Virus record (IMG/VR): IMGVR_UViG_3300037991_005364
Location: 1 to 54,308 of that record
Source of the DNA: a virus
Lineage: Duplodnaviria; Caudoviricetes
DNA length: 54,308 nt
Reading direction: 5' to 3' (one strand)
Part shown: positions 1 to 6,212 of the stretch, piece by piece
Layout of the letters: each line of letters starts with the position of its first letter
Numbering within the stretch: the first letter of the stretch is position 1
Program-made: the position numbers and the translations under genes
The notes under the pieces: generated by a model
Told to the model about the DNA's origin: nothing
Seen by the model: only the letters and a program-made list of their open reading frames with translations
The model's database searches: none

Positions 1-1
1 T

Positions 2-382
2 GCATTGGTGAAAGGATCGAAAGAGACGGTGCTGAAACCGACAACAAAACCAACGGTCAATAGGCAAACAACGTTCAAGGATTTCACACAAAAGTATCAA
101 CCTAATGTTCAAGGTCCAAAGAGATCTGAGTTACAAGTACAAGCAGATCATATATTGAGGACTACTAAGAAGAGGAGAAAGACGATAACAAAGTCACAAT
201 TAGATTCAATGCAAATATCAGATAAGGAGAAGCAGAAGTTAATTAGACAAGGATTAGTCACAGAGGATAATAAGAATAGAGATGCTAAACTCTATGGACA
301 ATATAAGCAATTACAGAATCCTAGTGATCCTAGAGAGCAACAGATAAGAGATGCAATTAAAGCAAGATTGAAGAAAGTTTAA
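2..382 (+). CDS. Basic hypothetical protein, probably the 3' part of a gene starting upstream of the window
   Basis: Frame is open from position 2 (GCA TTG GTG...) to TAA at 380-382; K/R/Q-rich; contains TTFKDF and LVTE|D motifs. Confidence 0.6.
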   Translation, partial: ALVKGSKETVLKPTTKPTVNRQTTFKDFTQKYQPNVQGPKRSELQVQADHILRTTKKRRKTITKSQLDSMQISDKEKQKLIRQGLVTEDNKNRDAKLYGQYKQLQNPSDPREQQIRDAIKARLKKV

Positions 383-405
383 TTTAATAATCATGAATCT
401 TACAA

Positions 406-600
406 ATGTGGAAGATTTGGTGTAAAGCATTAGGTACAAAAGAGGGTAAGAGTAACAGAGAAGCAGATGCAGTTGCTGTTATTCGTACCCTTATTTTGTT
501 GGGTTATATGATTACTAACTCCTTCATTATGGCAGGGGTGGTTAGACATTGGAACTCAGAGACAAATGTATTCGTTGATACAGTTATTATAGAGAAATAG
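406..600 (+). CDS. Small membrane protein typical of marine T4-like phages
   Basis: MWKIWCKALG...EADAVAVIRT followed by a hydrophobic stretch LILLGYMITNSFIMAGVV and RHWN. Confidence 0.75.
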   Translation: MWKIWCKALGTKEGKSNREADAVAVIRTLILLGYMITNSFIMAGVVRHWNSETNVFVDTVIIEK

Positions 601-790
601 GTTAAAAAAAGGTTTTTAATATGATAATAAATATAAAACTGTTTTTTATCTCTTAGATACTGTGTGGTTGCTTTAGGGTGTCTTCGGAGTATCTTTGAAG
701 CATTTTATGTGCTTTTAATGTCTTGTAAAGGTGTCCAGTTAAGTGCTCTAAAATCTTATAGAAAGGTGCTGAGGTGTTGTGAGTTTAGCG

Positions 791-819
791 AGCGTATCAT
801 AAGACGCGCAGTCTGTCAA
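791..819 (-). promoter_or_regulatory. Leftward sigma70-type promoter, TTGACA-17-TACGCT with TGn extension
   Basis: + strand AGCGTA (791-796), 17-nt spacer, TGTCAA (814-819); points into non-coding 600-785. Confidence 0.55.
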
Positions 820-871
820 CCCACGGGGACGGGCAAAAATCAGCATAACTTAACATTTTTATAATTCTTTG

Positions 872-879
872 TATAAATA
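872..879 (+). promoter_or_regulatory. T4-type late promoter TATAAATA
   Basis: Exact gp55 consensus in an intergenic position. Confidence 0.5.
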
Positions 880-890
880 ACCACTATGAA

Positions 891-1102
891 TCTCGACGAG
901 ACTCACTGGTTCTTCTAGTTGACTTCTCGACGAGTTATCTGTATAATACACAAGAATCTAGACGAAGACTATGTACGACGACTACGATCTCGACTATACT
1001 TATGCTCCACAGTATGAGTACGATCTCGACGAGATTTATGACTCTTGGATACAATCTAGTTCGTCTAGTCAGGTCTATCTAGATGAAGATCTTCATCTAG
1101 AT
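891..1102. repeat. Cluster of TCT(C/A)GA(C/T)GA palindromic repeats plus a 26-bp perfect palindrome
   Basis: TCTCGACGAGA 891-901, TCTCGACGAG 925-934, TCTAGACGAAGA 957-968, TCTCGACTA 988-996, ATCTCGACGAGAT 1023-1035, inverted TTCGTCTAG 1060-1068, ATCTAGATGAAGA|TCTTCATCTAGAT 1077-1102. Confidence 0.85.
919..947 (+). promoter_or_regulatory. Near-consensus sigma70 early promoter TTGACT-17-TATAAT
   Basis: TTGACT 919-924 and TATAAT 942-947; the spacer contains a TCTCGACGAG box. Confidence 0.85.
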
Positions 1103-1162
1103 GATGAATATGCTCGTGATACACAAGACTATGATGCGCTTGCGTATCGTCATTATGCGTGA
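971..1162 (+). CDS. Very acidic Tyr/Asp-rich small protein (63 aa)
   Basis: ATG just downstream of a strong promoter; about 18 D/E, 12 Y and no Lys. Confidence 0.65.
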   Translation: MYDDYDLDYTYAPQYEYDLDEIYDSWIQSSSSSQVYLDEDLHLDDEYARDTQDYDALAYRHYA

Positions 1163-1168
1163 TACAAT
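1140..1168 (+). promoter_or_regulatory. sigma70 promoter TTGCGT-17-TACAAT with TGn extension
   Basis: TTGCGT 1140-1145 and TACAAT 1163-1168, followed by an A/C-rich leader to ATG 1192. Confidence 0.7.
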
Positions 1169-1191
1169 ACATGCACACACGCACTAGACAC

Positions 1192-1347
1192 ATGCTTACA
1201 CACACAAAGCGTACCATCCGTGTTACACTTGATGTAGAGTGTTATGATGATCTAACCCTAGAAGACCTAGACTGGAATGAGGTTCTGGGATTAGAAGGTG
1301 ATGAATGTGTCGATGCCACAGTAAAGGAGATTGAACCTGTTTGGTGA
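1192..1347 (+). CDS. Small acidic hypothetical protein (51 aa; start moved from 1159 to the ATG at 1192)
   Basis: The track start at 1159 lies inside the promoter; MLTHTKRTIRVTLDVECYDDL...; about 14 D/E. Confidence 0.7.
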   Translation: MLTHTKRTIRVTLDVECYDDLTLEDLDWNEVLGLEGDECVDATVKEIEPVW

Positions 1348-1352
1348 GAACA

Positions 1353-1376
1353 GTGGACACTTTCTAAACTGGCACA
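1353..1376 (+). promoter_or_regulatory. Dyad early-promoter box 1 (GTGGACACTT-N4-AACTGGCACA), followed 7 nt later by TTGACA
   Basis: Matches four other copies at 1514, 1770, 2416 and 3980. Confidence 0.75.
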
Positions 1377-1377
1377 C

Positions 1378-1401
1378 GACCCCTTGACAGGGGTTTTTTT
1401 T
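1378..1401 (+). terminator. Intrinsic terminator ACCCCT-TGAC-AGGGGT plus T-run; TTGACA spans the loop
   Basis: 6-bp stem followed by a T-run, downstream of ORF 1192-1347. Confidence 0.75.
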
Positions 1402-1406
1402 ATGTT

Positions 1407-1473
1407 TACCGGACGGCAGGTTCGGTGGCGATGTATTGTCGTCCGCACGGTTACCCCACCGCTCCTCTGATTT
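1407..1473 (-). ncRNA. Putative structured small RNA, copy A
   Basis: About 49/67 identical to 2310-2375; compensatory hairpin; minus-strand -10 TATCTT (1484-1479) 5 nt upstream of the conserved AAATCA start; the strand is inferred from the promoter. Confidence 0.6.
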
Positions 1474-1513
1474 CCTATAAGATAACAGGGATTGGGACAC
1501 TATGGGAGGTTGC

Positions 1514-1537
1514 TGTGCCACTTTCTGAACTGTCTAC
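1514..1537. promoter_or_regulatory. Dyad box 2 (inverted orientation) between divergent promoters
   Basis: TGTGCCACTT-TCTG-AACTGTCTAC; -10-like hexamers 29 nt to the left (minus TATCTT) and 28 nt to the right (CATCAT 1566-1571). Confidence 0.7.
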
Positions 1538-1595
1538 TTTGGTGGCACAGGGTCTGATTTTGGGGCATCATTGTGTCAAGTCACACCGCAACCCG

Positions 1596-1772
1596 ATGAC
1601 CTACATTCAGCAACACCCCAACGCCCCGTATTTTGGGGAGACGGTTTCATTCACACCGATTGGCGATCAGGTTCTGGTGATCGCTGATTCTCAAATGCTG
1701 ATGATGACGCGGGAAGATGCTAGGGCAGAATGGCGACAGAATGCCGGACAAGGTTGGCAGCGTCTGGCATAG
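1596..1772 (+). CDS. Small early hypothetical protein (58 aa; start at 1596 rather than 1425)
   Basis: ATG follows the promoter cassette; ends in ARAEWRQNAGQGW; the upstream extension overlaps regulatory and ncRNA elements. Confidence 0.65.
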   Translation: MTYIQQHPNAPYFGETVSFTPIGDQVLVIADSQMLMMTREDARAEWRQNAGQGWQRLA

Positions 1773-1828
1773 GACAGTCAACCTAGTGGCACAAGGGAGT
1801 GGCACAGACCCGCTCCCTCCTGTATCTT
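1770..1828 (+). promoter_or_regulatory. Dyad box 3, stem-loop and -10 (promoter-early stem-loop cassette)
   Basis: TAGGACAGTC-AACC-TAGTGGCACA 1770-1793; hairpin AGGGAGTGG/CCGCTCCCT 1794-1818; TATCTT 1823-1828. Confidence 0.7.
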
Positions 1829-1855
1829 AAAAGAGTCAAACAAAGGCACCCAACC

Positions 1856-2188
1856 ATGCGTAAGATTGAATCCCTGATGAACGCCGCCATTCAGAACAAT
1901 CAGAACTGGCAATCTGGCAACACTTCTGTTCATTTTGACGAAGAATCTGGCGTCTCTACTGTTCATCTCCACGGAAACAAAATTGCTGAGGTTGGTGATA
2001 CTTTCATCCGATTGTTTGACGGCGGTTGGCAATCAGTGACCACAAAATCCCGCCTTAATGCTATTTTGGCAGAACATGGTGAAGATGGTGATTGTGTTTT
2101 TCAGAAAAACTTTGACTGGTTTGTGAACATTAACACAGTGCAAGGTATCAGCACTGTTCCTTTCTTTTCATCAATGCGCCTGGGTTGA
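1856..2188 (+). CDS. Conserved phage early hypothetical protein (110 aa; start at 1856)
   Basis: MRKIESLMNAAI...VHLHGNKIA...GGWQSVTTKSRLNAIL is a pattern I recognise from many phage early regions; function unknown. Confidence 0.8.
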   Translation: MRKIESLMNAAIQNNQNWQSGNTSVHFDEESGVSTVHLHGNKIAEVGDTFIRLFDGGWQSVTTKSRLNAILAEHGEDGDCVFQKNFDWFVNINTVQGISTVPFFSSMRLG

Positions 2189-2196
2189 TAACATTT

Positions 2197-2224
2197 AAGG
2201 GGGGATATTTTCTCCCCTTTTTTT
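2197..2224 (+). terminator. Intrinsic terminator
   Basis: AAGGGGGGA-TATTT-TCTCCCCTT followed by a T-run, directly after the ORF ending at 2188. Confidence 0.85.
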
Positions 2225-2309
2225 ACATTTAAGAATCCTACCGGAGGGTCTACCTCTATCCTAGCACACCATGGGACACCCTCTGGAAATTTAACATTCC
2301 TGAAACAAT

Positions 2310-2375
2310 TACCGGCAGGCAGGGGAGGTGACGACCTTTGGCGTCTGCAGTGCTACCCCGCACCTCCTTTGATTT
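2310..2375 (-). ncRNA. Putative structured small RNA, copy B
   Basis: Homologous to 1407-1473; minus-strand -10 TATGAT (2387-2382) 6 nt upstream of AAATCA. Confidence 0.6.
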
Positions 2376-2415
2376 GAACCTATCATACATCCGCACGACC
2401 ACCCGCCAACCAATT

Positions 2416-2439
2416 TTGGACAGTTCGCCAACTGGCACA
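2416..2439. promoter_or_regulatory. Dyad box 4 between divergent promoters
   Basis: TTGGACAGTT-CGCC-AACTGGCACA; -10 hexamers 28 nt away on both sides (minus TATGAT; plus TATCAT 2468-2473). Confidence 0.75.
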
Positions 2440-2495
2440 AGGCCGCGGCATAGGATAAAAAATGACCTATCATTCTCTTAGTTGCAATCCACCCC

Positions 2496-2783
2496 ATGGA
2501 CTTTCACAACTACTCCCTGGACCAATACGAAGCGCAACAGGCAGCGGACGACCGCAACCGCCAGGCGCTGGACACCGACACTTGCTGGGATGATTTTGGT
2601 TTCCGTACCTTCTGGGATGAGGTAGAACTGCTGAATGACCTTCCGGTGGACCTGGAGGACGGGTGGGCATTGGAGGAGATCCTGGCAGCGTATAAGGTAG
2701 AAGACACTGCACGGGATGCTGTCGCTGCGATTGAGGACGGATACGACCCGACGCCCGACACCGCTTACGATTCCTTCCATTGA
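2496..2783 (+). CDS. Highly acidic early protein (95 aa)
   Basis: About 26 D/E and 1 K; follows a promoter cassette. Confidence 0.75.
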   Translation: MDFHNYSLDQYEAQQAADDRNRQALDTDTCWDDFGFRTFWDEVELLNDLPVDLEDGWALEEILAAYKVEDTARDAVAAIEDGYDPTPDTAYDSFH

Positions 2784-2793
2784 ATTTAAGGTT

Positions 2794-2852
2794 TGGGCGG
2801 TTGACTCCGCCCATCCTGTGCTACCATTAACTCAAGTTCAAACAAACGAACC
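2794..2852 (+). promoter_or_regulatory. Stem-loop, extended -10 and A/C-rich leader cassette
   Basis: TGGGCGG-TTGACT-CCGCCCA hairpin 2794-2813; TG-C-TACCAT 2819-2827; leader AGTTCAAACAAACGAACC-ATG. Confidence 0.7.
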
Positions 2853-3347
2853 ATGATCACTGGCACCGCTCTCCTGGATACCTACAACGCTATGCGCGAA
2901 CAGGGTAAAAAACCCTCTGAGATTGCCATCGCTTGTGGTTACTCAACGGCAGAAGGATCTAACACTAAGATTAACTTCACCGATTTCTACACTGAGTTAT
3001 TGAAGTCTAAGGGCGCTCTTCTTCGCGTTCTTGATGATAACGAAGCGGTGGAAATTAAGGCAGAGGATAGTGACTATCAGGAGCAAATTAATGAACTCCT
3101 GGAAGATTATCCTGCTGATGCAATTCGCGCCTTTATTGAACTTTATGGAGAAGATGATCTGGACCGCTTCAGTGACTCCTATCAGGGTGAAATGTCAGGC
3201 GCTGAGTTCGCTGAGCAGTTGGTCACTGATTGCTACTGTCTGGATCTGCCTGGATTCGTAGAGGTTGACTGGCAGGAGACTTGGGAGAACCTGGAACGTC
3301 ATGACTACAGCGAACAGGATGGGTTCATTTTCTCAGAGTGCTGGTGA
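2853..3347 (+). CDS. Fusion of a cyanobacterial AbrB-like N-terminal helical domain and an ArdA-like antirestriction (DNA-mimic) domain
   Basis: N-terminal ITGTALL...AIACGY...INFTDFYTELLKSKG; C-terminal YQGEMSGAEFAEQLV..DLPGFVEVDWQETWENL..DYSEQDGFIF resembles ArdA domain 3; very acidic. Confidence 0.65.
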   Translation: MITGTALLDTYNAMREQGKKPSEIAIACGYSTAEGSNTKINFTDFYTELLKSKGALLRVLDDNEAVEIKAEDSDYQEQINELLEDYPADAIRAFIELYGEDDLDRFSDSYQGEMSGAEFAEQLVTDCYCLDLPGFVEVDWQETWENLERHDYSEQDGFIFSECW

Positions 3348-3432
3348 TGTGACGGATTGTTAAAAAAAGGGGAACCATCTACAGTTCCCCTTCCTGATCT
3401 CTTATTATTAGTTCAGTTCACACAAACGAACC
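3348..3432 (+). promoter_or_regulatory. Second-family promoter cassette, copy 1
   Basis: TGTGACGGATTGTTAA; hairpin AAGGGGAAC/GTTCCCCTT 3367-3392; TATTAT 3403-3408; CAGTTCACACAA 3414-3425. Confidence 0.75.
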
Positions 3433-3732
3433 ATGTTCACCTCCATCACCCGCCGCCAATCTTTCGGTGCCACCTATCAGTGGGCGGTGCTCTCAACGCT
3501 CCCTATGGACACTGATAAGCAACGCGGCGGACTGCGTGCCTGTGAGGTCAATCAGGCACTGGGGATGCCTAAGGAAGCACGCACAACGGTAACGCTCCTG
3601 CTCAAGGCGATGGCGTCTCAGGGCATGGTCCGCCGTTATGAGTACATGATGGGCAAACAGAAAATGATCACTTACAAGCGACTCCTGCCGCTGCGTAAGC
3701 GTGAGCGCATCGCCCGCCTGATGGGAGTGTGA
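3433..3732 (+). CDS. Basic winged-helix-like DNA-binding protein
   Basis: LRACEVNQALGM...TVTLLLKAMASQGMVRRY pattern (HTH followed by a wing). Confidence 0.6.
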   Translation: MFTSITRRQSFGATYQWAVLSTLPMDTDKQRGGLRACEVNQALGMPKEARTTVTLLLKAMASQGMVRRYEYMMGKQKMITYKRLLPLRKRERIARLMGV

Positions 3733-3810
3733 ACGATTGTTAAAGATAGGGCAGGCATCCACAGTCTGCCCTCTCCATCGCCTACAATTATCTCAGTTCA
3801 CACAAGGACC
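3728..3810 (+). promoter_or_regulatory. Second-family promoter cassette, copy 2
   Basis: TGTGAACGATTGTTAA; hairpin AGGGCAGGC/GTCTGCCCT 3748-3772; TACAAT 3783-3788; CAGTTCACACAA 3794-3805; the conserved motifs are exactly 380 nt from those of copy 1. Confidence 0.75.
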
Positions 3811-4014
3811 ATGCCTCTCTCATTCTCCGACGCTCTCCTGCAACTGCCCGCCTTTGTTGCTGATAACACTGCATCCCTGGACCTTGCCTATGATTGGGTG
3901 TCGGAGATGACAGAACTTAACATCGCAGACAGTAAGCAACTGTGGCATGAGTTCTGGGTAGCATATCACGACGCCGCCTGGTGGCAGAATGACAACTGGC
4001 ACACGGTCGCTTGA
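3811..4014 (+). CDS. Small early hypothetical protein (67 aa)
   Basis: ATG directly after the cassette; Trp/Asp-rich; its 3' end overlaps dyad box 5. Confidence 0.65.
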   Translation: MPLSFSDALLQLPAFVADNTASLDLAYDWVSEMTELNIADSKQLWHEFWVAYHDAAWWQNDNWHTVA

Positions 4015-4039
4015 CAGCAGCGTTAGTGCGTGATAGGCA
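3980..4039 (+). promoter_or_regulatory. Dyad box 5 and TTGACA promoter
   Basis: AACTGGCACA 3994-4003; TTGACA 4011-4016 (same 7-nt gap as box 1); weak -10 TAGGCA at 17-nt spacing. Confidence 0.55.
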
Positions 4040-4162
4040 GTGCCCCCGCCGTCGGGGGTGCCGCCGCGCCCCGTATATAAAACCACTAGGTACCATTAAT
4101 CTATAAAGTCTTGCTTTTGCGAGGTCTTTGTATAACTCTTCACTTTTCTATATAAACCAAGA

Positions 4163-4351
4163 ATGGAAAACGAAATACATCATATGCAAAAAAATCCCGG
4201 AGAAAATTTTACCAATGTAGAGGTTGATCCTGTAACTGGTGAATATGTTATGAAGATACCTGAATGGATTATATCTGAGTTTGGGTGGTATGAGGGTACA
4301 GAGATTAATATGGAGGTAGATAAGGATAGCATCGTAATAACCGAATGCTAG
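4163..4351 (+). CDS. AbrB/MazE/SpoVT-like swapped-hairpin DNA-binding protein
   Basis: GEYVMKIPEWIISEFGWYEGTEINMEVDKDSIVI matches the IP..I...lG...Gd.v.......I.I pattern; alternative start at 4184. Confidence 0.7.
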   Translation: MENEIHHMQKNPGENFTNVEVDPVTGEYVMKIPEWIISEFGWYEGTEINMEVDKDSIVITEC

Positions 4352-4353
4352 TA

Positions 4354-4382
4354 TTGACTATCACTTAAGTTACTAGTATAAT
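4354..4382 (+). promoter_or_regulatory. sigma70 promoter TTGACT-17-TATAAT
   Basis: TTGACT 4354-4359 and TATAAT 4377-4382. Confidence 0.85.
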
Positions 4383-4421
4383 TACTATTGAATCGATTCA
4401 CATTCAAAACTTGACCTAATT

Positions 4422-5183
4422 ATGGCAAAAGGATTTACAGTAAAAGCAAAAGCGCCCGCTAAACCAAAAGCAGCAGAGCAAGAGTGGGACTATAATAAAG
4501 CAAGAGAGATGCTTAAAGGAAAGACAGTAGTCTTCTGTCTTCCTGGTCGTGGAGTATCATATACGTATCTTAAAAACTTTGTGCAACTTTGTTTTGATCT
4601 AGTACAGTGTGGTGCTAGTATTCAAATTTCACAAGACTATAGTTCAATGGTGAACTTTGCACGTTGTAAGTGTCTTGGTGCAAATGTATTGCGTGGACCT
4701 CAGCAAAAACCATGGGATGGTAAATTGAAGTATGACTATCAGTTGTGGATTGATAGTGACATTGTGTTTAACACTGAGAAATTCTATCAACTGGTGTTAA
4801 TGGATAAGGATATTGCAAGTGGGTGGTACATGACCGAAGATGGTCAAACTACAAGTGTTGCACATTGGATGGAAGAAGATGATTTCCGTAATAATGGTGG
4901 AGTGATGAATCATGAAACTGGGGAGACTATTTCAAAGCGTCGTAAACCATTTACTGTAGACTATGCAGGATTTGGATGGTTGTTGATTAAGAATGGAGTC
5001 TTTGAACATGAGGGTATGCCTTATCCTTGGTTTGCACCAAAGATGCAAGTCTTTGAATCTGGTGAAGTACAGGACATGTGTGGAGAAGATGTATCATTCT
5101 GTCTTGATGCAAAAGAAGCAGGATTTGAGATTTGGTGTGATCCTCGCGTTCGCGTTGGTCACGAAAAGTCTCGCGTAATCTGA
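4422..5183 (+). CDS. GT-A fold glycosyltransferase-like protein
   Basis: LWIDSDIVF (DxD motif), GFGWLLI, GEDVSFC and VRVGHEK motifs. Confidence 0.75.
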   Translation: MAKGFTVKAKAPAKPKAAEQEWDYNKAREMLKGKTVVFCLPGRGVSYTYLKNFVQLCFDLVQCGASIQISQDYSSMVNFARCKCLGANVLRGPQQKPWDGKLKYDYQLWIDSDIVFNTEKFYQLVLMDKDIASGWYMTEDGQTTSVAHWMEEDDFRNNGGVMNHETGETISKRRKPFTVDYAGFGWLLIKNGVFEHEGMPYPWFAPKMQVFESGEVQDMCGEDVSFCLDAKEAGFEIWCDPRVRVGHEKSRVI

Positions 5184-5187
5184 TATT

Positions 5188-5346
5188 ATGGAGGAGAAGT
5201 ATACAATTCTCCATAAGGGGAAAGTACTTTATAAAAACTTGACTAAAGATAAGTACTTTGATATTATGGAAGACCTTTCAATTGAATTTTATCAGAAAGG
5301 TTCTCCACGTTCTCAAGACCTTGAGACAAAAATTACTAAGTTCTAG
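5188..5346 (+). CDS. Small hypothetical protein (52 aa, not in the ORF track)
   Basis: MEEKYTILHKGKVLYKNLTKDKYFDIMEDLSIEFYQKGSPRSQDLETKITKF; fills the gap between its neighbours. Confidence 0.7.
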   Translation: MEEKYTILHKGKVLYKNLTKDKYFDIMEDLSIEFYQKGSPRSQDLETKITKF

Positions 5347-5357
5347 GAGTTATTATT

Positions 5358-5510
5358 ATGGTAATGCGTTCAAAGATTGGTGCTCTTGGTAAAGAAGGGT
5401 TTATGCCTGGAAAACCAAAGAAGACTCGTCAAGGGTCCGGAAAAAACACGAAGTATGCCGCTTCTTCTCGCAATAACGCTAAGAAAGCATATCGTGGACA
5501 AGGGCGATGA
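5358..5510 (+). CDS. Small basic protein ending in YRGQGR (50 aa, not in the ORF track)
   Basis: AGGAG RBS at 5345-5349; ...KPKKTRQGSGKNTKYAASSRNNAKKAYRGQGR. Confidence 0.8.
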   Translation: MVMRSKIGALGKEGFMPGKPKKTRQGSGKNTKYAASSRNNAKKAYRGQGR

Positions 5511-5537
5511 TTAAATAGACCAGTTACATCGTTTTGA

Positions 5538-6212
5538 ATGGCTTGTCTTATTACTAATCTTCCGTCACAAGAAGTATGGGTACGTAAAGAATATTTGACT
5601 GACCATCAAAGTGGACATGGTGAATTTGTAAAAGGCGTTTGGGTATCGGCTAAGTCTATACCTGGACGCACTTTTTATTTTGAAACTTATTTACCAGAAT
5701 ATGCGGCAATTTATGATAAATTACCGATTTCCGCTTTCCTCTCAGAACCAGAAACTCCTGATCCTGATATGGATTTACCTAATTTACAATTCTGGAACTG
5801 TATGGACTATGGTGTCGTTAGTATAGATAAAAAATTCATTGGTTCAATGGACTTTGAATGCTATACACGCGACTTTGGTATTCAGAAAGGTACTTATGTT
5901 TGTACAATTGATAACTATCATCATGATCCAGACTACGTAGACTGGGCAACAAGTGAAAATCCTGCTGAACATAAGTCTCATAACCTTATTGAATTGAATA
6001 ATGGTCAATATGCACTCTATCCAAACAATAGATTGCGTATTTTTGACAATAGTTTGACACCTATGGAACCAAAAATGCCTGATTTTAAGGTTTCAACCGA
6101 ATATTATCAAGTAGAAAATGGATTTGAACGACTTGGTATGGGTCGTGAAGACGAATATCACTGGAAAACAGCAAAAGAACGCCAACAGGAGGAAGAAAAT
6201 GGAACCAACTAG
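5538..6212 (+). CDS. Conserved hypothetical protein of marine T4-like phages
   Basis: 224-aa ORF with VWVRKEYL, LQFWNC, EHKSHN and YALYPNNR motifs; late-promoter-like ATTAAATA upstream. Confidence 0.8.
   Translation: MACLITNLPSQEVWVRKEYLTDHQSGHGEFVKGVWVSAKSIPGRTFYFETYLPEYAAIYDKLPISAFLSEPETPDPDMDLPNLQFWNCMDYGVVSIDKKFIGSMDFECYTRDFGIQKGTYVCTIDNYHHDPDYVDWATSENPAEHKSHNLIELNNGQYALYPNNRLRIFDNSLTPMEPKMPDFKVSTEYYQVENGFERLGMGREDEYHWKTAKERQQEEENGTN

What the first reader, a model, noticed from the sequence alone, without database searches (positions are those of the whole stretch)
1407..2375. Two homologous structured non-coding elements with compensatory base pairs and their own leftward promoters
Seen: 1407-1473 and 2310-2375 align at about 49/67 positions (blocks TACCGG, GGCAGG, GGTG.CGA, TG.CGTC.GCA, TACCCC, CTCCT.TGATTT). 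A 1-nt indel breaks any shared reading frame. A hairpin around the invariant TACCCC loop (GGGGUA on the minus strand) covaries at 3 of 4 pairs: CGGT/ACCG (1448-1461) versus GTGC/GCAC (2350-2363). Both copies can also form two crossing helices (A: 1410-1418/1437-1445 and 1423-1428/1456-1461; B: 2315-2320/2343-2348 and 2324-2330/2361-2367). This H-type pseudoknot is mutually exclusive with the hairpin. Each copy has a minus-strand -10 (TATCTT, TATGAT) 5-6 nt before an identical AAATCA start, and 28-29 nt from a dyad box shared with a divergent early ORF. I cannot match it to a riboswitch, ribozyme or tRNA that I know. Caveat: several pairs are G-U only on the + strand, so the functional strand is uncertain. 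Inference: an undescribed family of immediate-early phage small RNAs, possibly a decoy, an antitoxin mimic or a replication primer.
Basis: partly seen in the sequence, partly recalled or inferred. Interest (0 to 1): 0.85.

Follow-up and report, generated by a model that had tools for sequence, protein, structure and literature searches.

The report
Cyanophage small RNA family, leftward promoter
Two copies of a conserved, structured non-coding element sit between early genes of a T4-like cyanophage; relatives occur in many uncultured cyanophages, and each copy keeps its own leftward promoter, so it is probably a new phage small RNA of unknown function.

Summary
Copies A (1407-1473) and B (2310-2375) share 49 of 67 positions. 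They belong to a large family: 152 nhmmer hits, 98 unique sequences, in viral and metagenome contigs and in two cultured freshwater Kyanoviridae phages. Nothing in Rfam 15 matches.

One hairpin is proven by covariation: a 4-bp stem around the loop TACCCC (GGGGUA on the minus strand). It is 99% paired, with 59 double-sided and 0 one-sided changes and at least 21 stem switches on a tree.

The strand question leans leftward. A minus-strand TAnnnT box lies at a fixed distance in 98 of 98 sequences, against 82 of 98 on the plus strand. The base 7 nt downstream on the minus strand is A in 96 of 98. The box is the symmetric TAnnnTA bidirectional type in 77 of 98.

Best reading (about 0.55): an early small RNA transcribed leftward from 1472 and 2375, divergent from the rightward early ORF. 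Its function is untested, and no strand-specific RNA data were available.

The parts
1354..1375 (.). Upstream dyad half-sites (TGGACA 1354-1359, TGGCAC 1370-1375), between the stop codon of ORF 1159-1347 and its terminator.
   Evidence: families D3, D11. The same half-site family lies downstream of each copy.
1378..1402 (+). Intrinsic terminator of the upstream gene (stem 1378-1395, then a T run). It is the left border of module A.
   Evidence: Its left flank is not A-rich, so termination of a leftward RNA here is doubtful (one search lists it).
1407..1473 (-). Copy A of the conserved element. The predicted RNA is read leftward from about 1472.
   Evidence: (82.3 bits).
1426..1444 (.). P1 of copy A: an imperfect inverted repeat, TGGCGA / TCGTCC, with a 7-nt loop.
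   Evidence: Family-wide it is 80% paired on the plus strand and 76% on the minus strand, with only 1 compensatory change. It is conserved in sequence but not proven as a helix.
1447..1462 (-). P2 of copy A: stem 1448-1451/1458-1461, loop 1452-1457 (GGGGUA on the minus strand), closing 1447/1462 (U.G on the minus strand, A.C on the plus strand).
1472..1472 (-). Predicted leftward transcription start of copy A (A, 7 nt after the hexamer).
   Evidence: A in 96 of 98 homologues and G in 2. This is an inference; no 5'-end data exist.
1478..1484 (.). Symmetric -10 box TAAGATA: minus-strand TATCTT (1484->1479) and plus-strand TAAGAT (1478-1483).
   Evidence: The bidirectional-promoter geometry is taken from passages of bioRxiv 10.1101/2020.01.31.928960.
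1515..1537 (.). Downstream dyad of module A (GTGCCA 1515-1520 ... TGTCTAC 1531-1537). It overlaps the GTG start of ORF 1515-1772.
   Evidence: I4, I6; fixed distance in the family.
1856..2188 (+). Kyano_Gp96-family gene lying between the two copies. This family is the commonest neighbour of the element.
   Evidence: PF23790, E 2.9e-48; phrog_554; its BLAST cluster is present in 71 of 98 neighbourhoods.
2197..2221 (+). Intrinsic terminator of the Gp96 gene. Its left flank is A/T-rich.
2222..2305 (.). Conserved upstream extension of copy B, shared with L005, L007, L009, L012 and L209. It would be part of a longer leftward RNA or hold another rightward promoter.
   Evidence: read by eye.
2310..2375 (-). 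Copy B of the conserved element. The predicted RNA is read leftward from 2375.
   Evidence: (73.9 bits).
2329..2346 (.). P1 of copy B: GACG (2330-2333) / CGTC (2342-2345).
2349..2364 (-). P2 of copy B: stem 2350-2353/2360-2363, loop 2354-2359, closing 2349/2364.
2381..2387 (.). Symmetric -10 box TATCATA: minus-strand TATGAT (2387->2382) and plus-strand TATCAT (2381-2386).
   Evidence: (the scan lists TTGGCG-16-TATGAT on the minus strand).
2417..2438 (.). Downstream dyad of module B (TGGACA 2417-2422 ... TGGCAC 2433-2438).
   Evidence: (D4, D11, I4).

Best explanation
Each copy is the 5' domain of a small non-coding RNA transcribed leftward (minus strand).

Promoter. Transcription starts from a conserved -10 box that is symmetric (TAnnnTA), so the same box probably also fires rightward into the neighbouring early ORF. 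Predicted starts are A1472 (copy A) and A2375 (copy B).

RNA layout. It opens with a single-stranded AGGAG box. Next comes a 5-bp hairpin with the near-invariant hexaloop GGGGUA (P2), then a second imperfect hairpin (P1), a CCUGCC/GCAGCC motif and an A/U-rich stretch. In most family members the RNA then runs into the terminator of the upstream gene, which there has A-rich and T-rich flanks and so could stop both directions. That would give roughly 130-145 nt.

Context. The whole unit (terminator, element, -10 box, about 30 nt, dyad operator) is a portable regulatory module at the borders of small early-gene cassettes in Kyanoviridae.

Shown: the family, the hairpin, the conserved minus-strand promoter geometry and the fixed dyad.

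Inferred: that the RNA is made, where it ends, and what it does. My guess at function is that the loop-specific hairpin is a protein or RNA recognition site, and that the 5' AGGAG box binds the anti-Shine-Dalgarno region of 30S subunits. That would stabilise the RNA or give it its activity.
For: Family. A 22-nt pattern found 10 viral loci, all full-length homologues by eye. Wider patterns plus nhmmer gave 152 hits; 147 were extractable and 98 unique. The covariance model gave 101 matches in 77 sources, 99 distinct.

Hairpin P2.
- 99.0% of cells are paired. All 4 pairs change on both sides (11, 21, 2 and 25 cells), none on one side only, and 0 of 500 shuffles reach the score.
- The top complementary mutual-information pairs are P2 pairs only.
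- There are 14 stem types and at least 21 switches on a tree built without those columns; shuffled labels give 42-51.

Strand.
- Minus-strand TAnnnT is present in 98 of 98, at offset 27 (26 sequences) or 29 (65 sequences) from the loop. Plus-strand TAnnnT is present in 82 of 98, and TAnnnTA in 77 of 98.
- The minus-strand base 7 nt downstream is A in 96 and G in 2. On the plus side the same position is G 34, C 29, T 27, A 8.
- The pair closing P2 is A.C on the plus strand, which is U.G on the minus strand, in 95 of 99; it is G-C in 4.
- RNAalifold gives a 5-bp hairpin at -8.87 on the minus strand against 4 bp at -6.7 on the plus strand.

Terminators. Those within 60 nt of the element have 5 or more A in the 8-nt left flank in 24 of 50, against 7 of 104 other terminators in the same loci.

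Promoter geometry. It matches published bidirectional promoters, in which positions 2 and 6 of opposite -10 hexamers pair (passages).

Non-coding. A 6- or 7-nt P1 loop breaks frames, and there is no tRNA.

RNA libraries. Contigs from metatranscriptome runs cover both copies, including one contig 100% identical over 1279-1457.
Against: - No strand-specific or 5'-end data exist. The RNA-run contigs carry no strand, may include DNA, and also span the flanking genes.
- P1 favours the plus strand. Its third pair is G.U on the plus strand, which is A.C on the minus strand, in 54 of 99. P1 is 80% paired on the plus strand against 76% on the minus strand.
- In the window's copy A, and in the roughly 12 family members whose upstream hairpin has an A/T-rich stem, that hairpin is not followed by U on the minus strand. 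The 3' end there is undefined.
- Many adjacent terminators are homologous (same upstream gene family), so the 24/50 against 7/104 contrast overstates independent support.
- AT-rich -10-like boxes also lie upstream on the plus strand: best hexamer at least 4 bits in 92 of 98, though at variable positions (scored with a weight matrix I recalled only approximately).
- Single-sequence folds of either strand are not unusually stable. Z-scores are -0.89, -0.70, +0.05 and -1.01 for the window copies.
- The loop and its CTCC flank were part of the search patterns, so their invariance is partly due to how the sequences were collected.
Confidence: 0.55

Rival explanations
1. Rightward 5' leader. The element is transcribed on the plus strand, from an AT-rich -10-only promoter between the upstream terminator and the GGCAGG motif. 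It then acts in cis on the downstream early gene, through mRNA stability, translation via its CUCC anti-SD-like box, or read-through of the next terminator in the manner of nut/put sites.
For: - The layout terminator, AT-rich stretch, element, ORF is constant, with a typical gap of 41-55 nt from the upstream stop codon.
- Good -10 hexamers lie upstream in many members: TGTTATAAT in DSL-LC03 and TGATATAAT in L011. The best upstream hexamer scores at least 6 bits in 67 of 98.
- P1 has G.U on the plus strand in 54 of 99.
- In the window, CUCC of copy A could pair with the GGGAGG Shine-Dalgarno of ORF 1515 (by eye).
Against: - The upstream hexamers sit at very variable distances, -69 to -37 from the loop. 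They are poor or absent in some members: L123, L232, L059 and L046.
- This reading leaves the 98-of-98 minus-strand hexamer and the 96-of-98 A unexplained.
- Most downstream regions have no Shine-Dalgarno to sequester (by eye).
- The downstream genes belong to many unrelated families.
Confidence: 0.2
2. DNA-level module. The conserved block is a promoter-upstream or recombination cassette of the PeSL type. The hairpin forms in single-stranded or supercoiled DNA, or is only a by-product, and the module's role is to shuffle early-gene cassettes and to carry a regulated bidirectional promoter.
For: - It sits at cassette borders in a GC-rich island of small ORFs inside an AT-rich genome.
- There are 1-4 copies per contig.
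- An RNA-run contig joins 1439 to 2342, a hybrid of copies A and B lacking the 902 nt between them (one contig, 25 nt on the shorter side).
- Related contigs diverge right after the module, at 1568.
- The P2 stems show Watson-Crick pairs only, with no wobble intermediates.
- Dyad half-sites lie at a fixed distance.
- PeSLs are described as terminator-plus-promoter cassettes that mediate such shuffling (PMC2839356, abstract and section 14).
Against: - Complementarity is kept through at least 21 stem switches while the loop stays constant. That points to a folded single strand read by its loop, which recombination homology alone does not require.
- A 4-5 bp palindrome is too short to extrude as a cruciform (general knowledge).
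- PeSLs have -35 and -10 boxes and no such extra 70-nt block.
Confidence: 0.13
3. Sense-antisense pair. Both strands are transcribed, rightward from the box after the terminator and leftward from the symmetric box. The convergent promoters or the resulting duplex regulate each other by transcriptional interference, loop-loop kissing or RNase III processing.
For: - TATACT follows directly after the T run in 35 of 98, facing the minus-strand hexamer about 80-90 nt away.
- Both strands can form P2.
- The strand evidence from base pairs is mixed: P1 favours the plus strand and the closing pair of P2 favours the minus strand.
Against: The TATACT box is confined to one subgroup and is absent from both window copies. 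There is no data on transcripts.
Confidence: 0.09
4. A short peptide gene on either strand.
For: ORFs cross both copies on both strands. About 10 of 99 members have ATG in place of the AGG of the minus-strand AGGAG box.
Against: The 1-nt length difference in the P1 loop shifts the frame between copies. Stops and starts are not conserved. Substitutions in P2 preserve pairing, not codons.
Confidence: 0.02

Closest known systems
PeSL cassettes (promoter-early stem-loops) of T4-type phages (Arbiol et al. 2010, PMC2839356, abstract and section 14 read; Comeau et al. 2014, PMC4122927, passages read)
   Same: Repeated intergenic regulatory units in the variable regions of T4-like phages, between small ORFs of unknown function. 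Each combines a terminator stem-loop with an early promoter. There are hints of recombination between copies.
   Different: - PeSLs are about 50 bp, with sigma-70 -35 and -10 boxes, and drive the downstream gene only.
- This module has no -35 box, is about 135 nt long, and contains an extra conserved block of about 70 nt with a covarying hairpin.
- It also has a symmetric -10 box whose better-conserved side points away from the gene, and a dyad operator at a fixed distance.
- The two PeSL papers do not mention cyanophages (0 occurrences).
Bacterial bidirectional promoters with overlapping -10 elements (Warman et al., bioRxiv 10.1101/2020.01.31.928960, passages read)
   Same: The -10 hexamers on opposite strands are offset by one base, so that positions 2 and 6 pair (TAnnnTA). 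This is the 18-bp class and is described as frequent in horizontally acquired DNA. It is present in 77 of 98 family members.
   Different: Here the leftward product is itself conserved and structured, and the leftward hexamer and start base are better kept than the rightward ones. Divergent starts have not been measured.
Lambda nut (boxA + boxB) and HK022 put antiterminator RNAs (recalled, not read here)
   Same: Two copies per genome next to early promoters. A short hairpin whose stem varies while the loop is kept, beside a conserved linear motif. Terminators are nearby.
   Different: No sequence likeness and no N-like gene found. If the RNA is leftward it does not precede any terminator-gene series. 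Each cassette has its own promoter, so read-through is not needed.
Known cyanophage and cyanobacterial RNA motifs: CfrI, PhotoRC-II, wcaG, manA, glnA riboswitch and abiF (listed in PMC9964418, passages read); Yfr1 (recalled)
   Same: Non-coding RNA elements carried by T4-like cyanophages. Yfr1 likewise presents a short conserved single-stranded motif next to hairpins.
   Different: None matches. Rfam 15 gives 0 hits at gathering score over the whole window. In 1200-4200 it gives only chance-level hits elsewhere, the best being a CD-box snoRNA at E 0.0057.
5' Shine-Dalgarno-like stabilisers (STAB-SD of Bacillus cryIIIA mRNA; recalled, not read here)
   Same: An SD-like box near the 5' end of an RNA with no start codon behind it. 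It is thought to bind 30S subunits and protect the RNA.
   Different: A different phylum. Not tested here, and relevant only if the minus strand is the RNA.

Membership tests
Any Rfam 15 family | Score at or above the family's gathering threshold | tested here: not met
   0 matches in the whole window. (E up to 10, region 1200-4200): 5 weak matches, none on 1407-1473 or 2310-2375.
tRNA / tmRNA | Cloverleaf or tmRNA detected by ARAGORN | tested here: not met
   0 genes in 1-6000.
PeSL cassette | Lies between small ORFs in a variable region of a T4-like phage | tested here: met
   The island 1350-4080 holds small plus-strand ORFs in a Synechococcus myovirus. The two isolate records with a copy are classified in Kyanoviridae.
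PeSL cassette | Sigma-70-like promoter with both -35 and -10 boxes | tested here: not met
   One search finds full promoters at 919-947 and 4354-4382, but at the elements only a 9/12 minus-strand match for copy B. Family-wide only the -10 is kept.
PeSL cassette | Stem-loop that terminates upstream transcription | tested here: met
   (1378-1402, 2197-2221); 50 distinct terminators within 60 nt upstream of elements.
PeSL cassette | Recombination between copies (shuffling, mini-circles) | tested here: inconclusive
   one contig joins 1439 to 2342, and related contigs break at 1568. This rests on a single contig, at 90% likeness, with 25 nt on the shorter side.
Bidirectional promoter (18-bp class) | -10 hexamers on opposite strands offset by one base (TAnnnTA) | tested here: met
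   77 of 98. Both window copies have it (TAAGATA, TATCATA).
Bidirectional promoter (18-bp class) | Divergent transcription starts about 18 bp apart | not testable with these tools
   Only contigs of RNA runs were available.
Small RNA gene with its own promoter and intrinsic terminator | Conserved promoter at a fixed distance from the conserved RNA | tested here: met
   98 of 98 hexamers; 91 of 98 at offsets 27 or 29; A at +1 in 96 of 98.
Small RNA gene with its own promoter and intrinsic terminator | Terminator on the same strand | tested here: inconclusive
   an A-rich left flank, which gives a U-rich tail on the minus strand, in 24 of 50 adjacent terminators. It is not present at window copy A or in the subgroup with A/T-rich stems.
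   60.0% and 57.0% paired, against 60.0% and 56.9% in shuffles. A register-free duplex test gives -11.7 against -11.4 kcal/mol.
Lambda nut / HK022 put antiterminators | Lies in the transcript between an early promoter and downstream terminators, and suppresses them | not testable with these tools
   The transcribed strand is unknown and there is no functional assay. The resemblance is recalled only.

The most novel reading that the evidence does not exclude
The leftward RNA is an immediate-early, trans-acting phage riboregulator. Its invariant 5' AGGAG box, set against a hairpin with the GGGGUA loop, captures the anti-Shine-Dalgarno end of host 30S subunits, or a host RNA-binding or defence protein. 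This tilts translation toward the phage's own early mRNAs, which in this island mostly lack a Shine-Dalgarno sequence (leaders such as those before 2853, 3433 and 3811). Several paralogous copies per genome would raise the dose.
Probability: 0.1. Interest if true: 0.85.

Novelty: new variant of a known kind. Interest (0 to 1): 0.62.

Why it matters
Cyanomyoviruses control a large share of marine and freshwater picocyanobacterial mortality, yet their early gene regulation is barely known. Their non-coding RNAs are limited to a handful of Rfam motifs (listed in PMC9964418, passages read).

This is a widespread family with a well-supported hairpin: 98 distinct sequences, in two cultured phages and many uncultured ones. 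It has a clear, testable prediction: a minus-strand RNA starting at a defined A, divergent from an early gene.

It also shows that the variable early-gene islands of cyanophages are built from portable modules more elaborate than the PeSLs of coliphages: terminator, structured RNA, symmetric promoter and operator. One such module has moved between GC-rich (freshwater-type) and AT-rich (marine) phages.

If the RNA is made, it is a candidate for host takeover or counter-defence at the RNA level.

Tried and rejected
Rejected readings
- Rfam: no match. tRNA: none.
- The pseudoknot, and a register-free 'anti-P2' pairing of the variable 5' segment, are not conserved. Mutual information found no helix beyond P2.
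- P3, a hairpin I drew around the -10 box, is not conserved by eye, so I dropped it.
- The dyad as an RNA hairpin: half-sites occur as inverted or direct repeats without compensation (by eye), so I read it as a DNA site.
- Likeness of copy B's CACCTCCTTT, and of the TACCGGAAGG seen in L007, L009 and L012, to the 3' end of 16S rRNA (recalled). The second string is replaced by AT-rich sequence in most members, so I treat it as chance.
- Host origin: the genome-contig scan gave 7 hits, none with homologous flanks and none cyanobacterial. That pattern was strict, so a host homologue is not excluded.

Analyses that gave no answer
- Coding-strand assignment by ORF length (23 same, 6 opposite, 69 unclear of 98) and by protein-level conservation of both strands was uninformative in GC-rich DNA. 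Co-orientation with genes therefore rests on the window, on the two annotated isolates and on same-strand Gp96 homologues (where only same-strand ORFs were examined).
- RNA-run contigs give no strand and no ends. Contigs ending at 1457 (X20) and 1475 (X17) lie near the predicted start, but other contigs of X17 cover 1470-1583, so I draw no conclusion from them. Parts without cover mean nothing.
- Single-sequence folds: no significant z-scores.

Literature
- Five searches found no description of this element. The Syn9 transcriptome paper that I recalled did not appear in the library.
- Supplementary files were not consulted. Supplements of cyanophage transcriptome papers might list such an RNA.

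Rows dropped
- L001 and L002, which are copies of the window.
- 5 of 152 nhmmer hits at locus ends.
- Duplicates (147 collapsed to 98).
- The chance loci L013-L019 and L026, excluded by eye before the first alignment.
Full report
WHAT THE WINDOW IS

The window is a 54-kb fragment of a T4-like Synechococcus myovirus. It is an IMG/VR record that CheckV estimates at 25% complete. The nearest isolates by DNA are S-SKS1, S-SRM01 and other Synechococcus phages.

Positions about 1350-4080 form an island of 46-57% G+C inside flanks of 32-40%. The island holds small plus-strand ORFs:
- a Kyano_Gp96 protein at 1856-2188 (PF23790, E 2.9e-48);
- an anti-restriction-like protein at 2853-3347 (phrog_36653);
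- a weak winged-helix candidate at 3433-3732, below Pfam cut-offs.

Full sigma-70-type early promoters (11 of 12 matches) lie just outside the island, at 919-947 and 4354-4382.

THE OBSERVATION

Copies A (1407-1473) and B (2310-2375) share 49 identical positions with one 1-nt gap. A pattern from their 3' half occurs exactly twice in the window, where 0.04 is expected.

A REAL FAMILY

- The first pattern found 10 viral contigs, each with the whole element.
- The same pattern in 185,579 prokaryote genomes gave 7 hits without homologous flanks.
- nhmmer over all fetched loci (1.81 Mb) gave 152 hits. Of these, 147 were full-length extractable and 98 unique.
- A covariance model gave 101 matches in 77 sources, 99 of them distinct.
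- Contigs carry 1-4 copies.
- Two cultured freshwater Kyanoviridae phages carry one copy each, in unannotated intergenic DNA: DSL-LC03 (85 bits) and S-SRM01 (a diverged copy without the 3' arm of P1, 32.8 bits).
- The commonest neighbour is the Gp96 family (its BLAST cluster is present in 71 of 98 neighbourhoods).
- Rfam 15 has nothing like it. The cyanophage RNAs listed in PMC9964418 (passages) are all different families.

Caveat: the loop and its CTCC flank were in the search patterns. Extra copies found only by the profile show that the loop does vary slightly (TACCCT, TACCTC, TACCCA, TGCCCC).

STRUCTURE

The only helix proven by covariation is P2, a 4-bp stem around the hexaloop.
- It is 99.0% paired. 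All four pairs have double-sided changes (59 cells), none has a one-sided change, and 0 of 500 shuffles reach the score. Slid controls give 36-73% paired.
- There are fourteen stem types, and at least 21 switches on a tree built without the stem columns, against 42-51 for shuffled labels.
- Mutual information finds no other complementary pair, and RNAalifold predicts only P2 on either strand.

P1 (TGGCGA ... TCGTCA) is a conserved imperfect inverted repeat with one compensatory change.

A register-free test of pairing between the variable 5' segment and P2 gives -11.7 against -11.4 kcal/mol. The pseudoknot is therefore rejected.

WHICH STRAND

Base pairs are ambiguous.
- P1 has G.U on the plus strand in 54 of 99, and C.A (U.G on the minus strand) in 28.
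- The pair closing P2 is A.C on the plus strand, which is U.G on the minus strand, in 95 of 99, and G-C in 4.

The promoter evidence is clearer.
- Just right of the element lies a box whose minus-strand reading is TAnnnT in 98 of 98 unique sequences. It sits at offset 27 or 29 from the loop in 91 of them.
- The plus-strand reading is TAnnnT in 82 of 98. All 21 sequences that lack the symmetric form keep the minus-strand hexamer.
- Seven bases downstream on the minus strand stands A in 96 and G in 2, preceded by C in 61. The matching plus-strand position is unconserved.
- For 65 or more freshwater-type sequences this A lay outside every search pattern.
- The box is TAnnnTA in 77 of 98. That is the geometry of bidirectional promoters, in which positions 2 and 6 of opposite hexamers pair and starts lie 18 bp apart (bioRxiv 10.1101/2020.01.31.928960, passages).
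- By contrast, -10-like hexamers between the upstream terminator and the element lie at variable distances and are missing in some members.
- Terminators next to the element have A-rich left flanks more often than other terminators of the same contigs: 24 of 50 against 7 of 104. Many of them are homologous, so these are not independent cases. In those members a leftward RNA of about 130-145 nt could end there.
- This does not hold for copy A of the window.

RNA data do not decide. Contigs of metatranscriptome runs cover both copies and their neighbours, without strand.

THE MODULE

Dyad half-sites (GTGCCA/TGGCAC, or TGGACA/TGTCCA) start 63-66 nt after the loop in 72 sequences. Two or more half-sites lie there in 64 of 97, against 28 of 980 random windows. 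Some members, including copy A, also have a dyad before the upstream terminator.

The unit is therefore: terminator, A/T-rich linker, element, symmetric -10 box, about 30 nt, dyad.

It resembles the PeSL cassettes of coliphage-type T4 relatives (PMC2839356, abstract and section 14; PMC4122927, passages). It differs in lacking a -35 box and in carrying the structured block and the operator.

One RNA-run contig joins 1439 to 2342, a hybrid of A and B. Relatives diverge at 1568. These are weak hints of shuffling at these modules.

VERDICT

- Most likely (0.55): a leftward early small RNA starting at 1472 and 2375, divergent from the early ORF. Its recognition features are the GGGGUA hairpin and the AGGAG box.
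- Rivals: a rightward leader (0.20), a DNA-level cassette (0.13), a sense-antisense pair (0.09), a peptide gene (0.02).
- Function is inferred only.
Host genomes could not be searched with the model.

Noticed in passing
window 1350-4080: Island of 46-57% G+C inside a 32-40% G+C phage genome. It is made of small plus-strand ORFs whose relatives and regulatory modules occur mainly in GC-rich viral contigs and in freshwater isolates. This suggests transfer between freshwater-type and marine cyanomyoviruses.
   Followed up: partly
window 3339-3425 and 3719-3805 (also before 2853); L045 3555-3640: A second kind of repeated intergenic unit. After the stop codon comes CGGATTGTTA, then a hairpin with compensatory changes between copies, a -10 box and a conserved SD-less leader (AGTTCACACAA..CCATG). 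It is shared with phage DSL-LC03. The first hairpin (3368-3392) reads as a good intrinsic terminator on the minus strand.
   Followed up: partly
window 1354-1375, 1515-1548, 1773-1805, 2417-2438, 3985-4003: Recurrent TGGCAC/GTGCCA and TGGACA/TGTCCA half-sites, as inverted or direct repeats. A 37-nt stretch holding this dyad matches intergenic DNA of S-CAM3, S-CAM4, ACG-2014j, S-SZBM1 and Sf-CH11 at 92%. This looks like an operator for an unidentified DNA-binding protein.
   Followed up: partly
window 3433-3732: A 99-aa ORF with weak, sub-threshold likeness to winged-helix repressors (Penicillinase_R E 0.027, HTH_IclR E 0.067). It is a candidate binder of the dyads.
   Followed up: no
window 2853-3347: A 164-aa ORF matching anti-restriction PHROGs (phrog_36653, E 2.6e-14). 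This fits an early host-takeover island.
   Followed up: no
L011 7986-8079 (+), next to 7965-7870 (-): A truncated copy of the element, inverted and back-to-back with a full copy. It lacks the -10 box region and has one P2 mismatch (40.9 bits). It is probably a decaying relic of a rearrangement.
   Followed up: partly
L045 3234-3563 (OR003938.1, about 82460-82789): An unannotated 109-aa GC-rich ORF in the 818-bp 'empty' gap of phage DSL-LC03, downstream of its copy of the element.
   Followed up: no
window 1439/2342 and 1568 (run X15/X16 contigs): One contig joins copy A to copy B, skipping 902 nt. Two contigs of related phages leave the window's sequence at 1568 and continue with a different cassette leader. 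This is consistent with cassette shuffling at these modules.
   Followed up: no
window 2222-2305: An extension of about 85 nt upstream of copy B (containing CTACCTCTATCCTAGCAC) is conserved in L005, L007, L009, L012 and L209. Similar CCTAGCA motifs precede other copies. Its role is unknown; it may be another promoter.
   Followed up: no
window 871-886 and 4073-4088: GTATAAATAACCACTA and GTATATAAAACCACTA repeats flank the island (D17). They resemble the T4-type late promoter TATAAATA (recalled).
   Followed up: no
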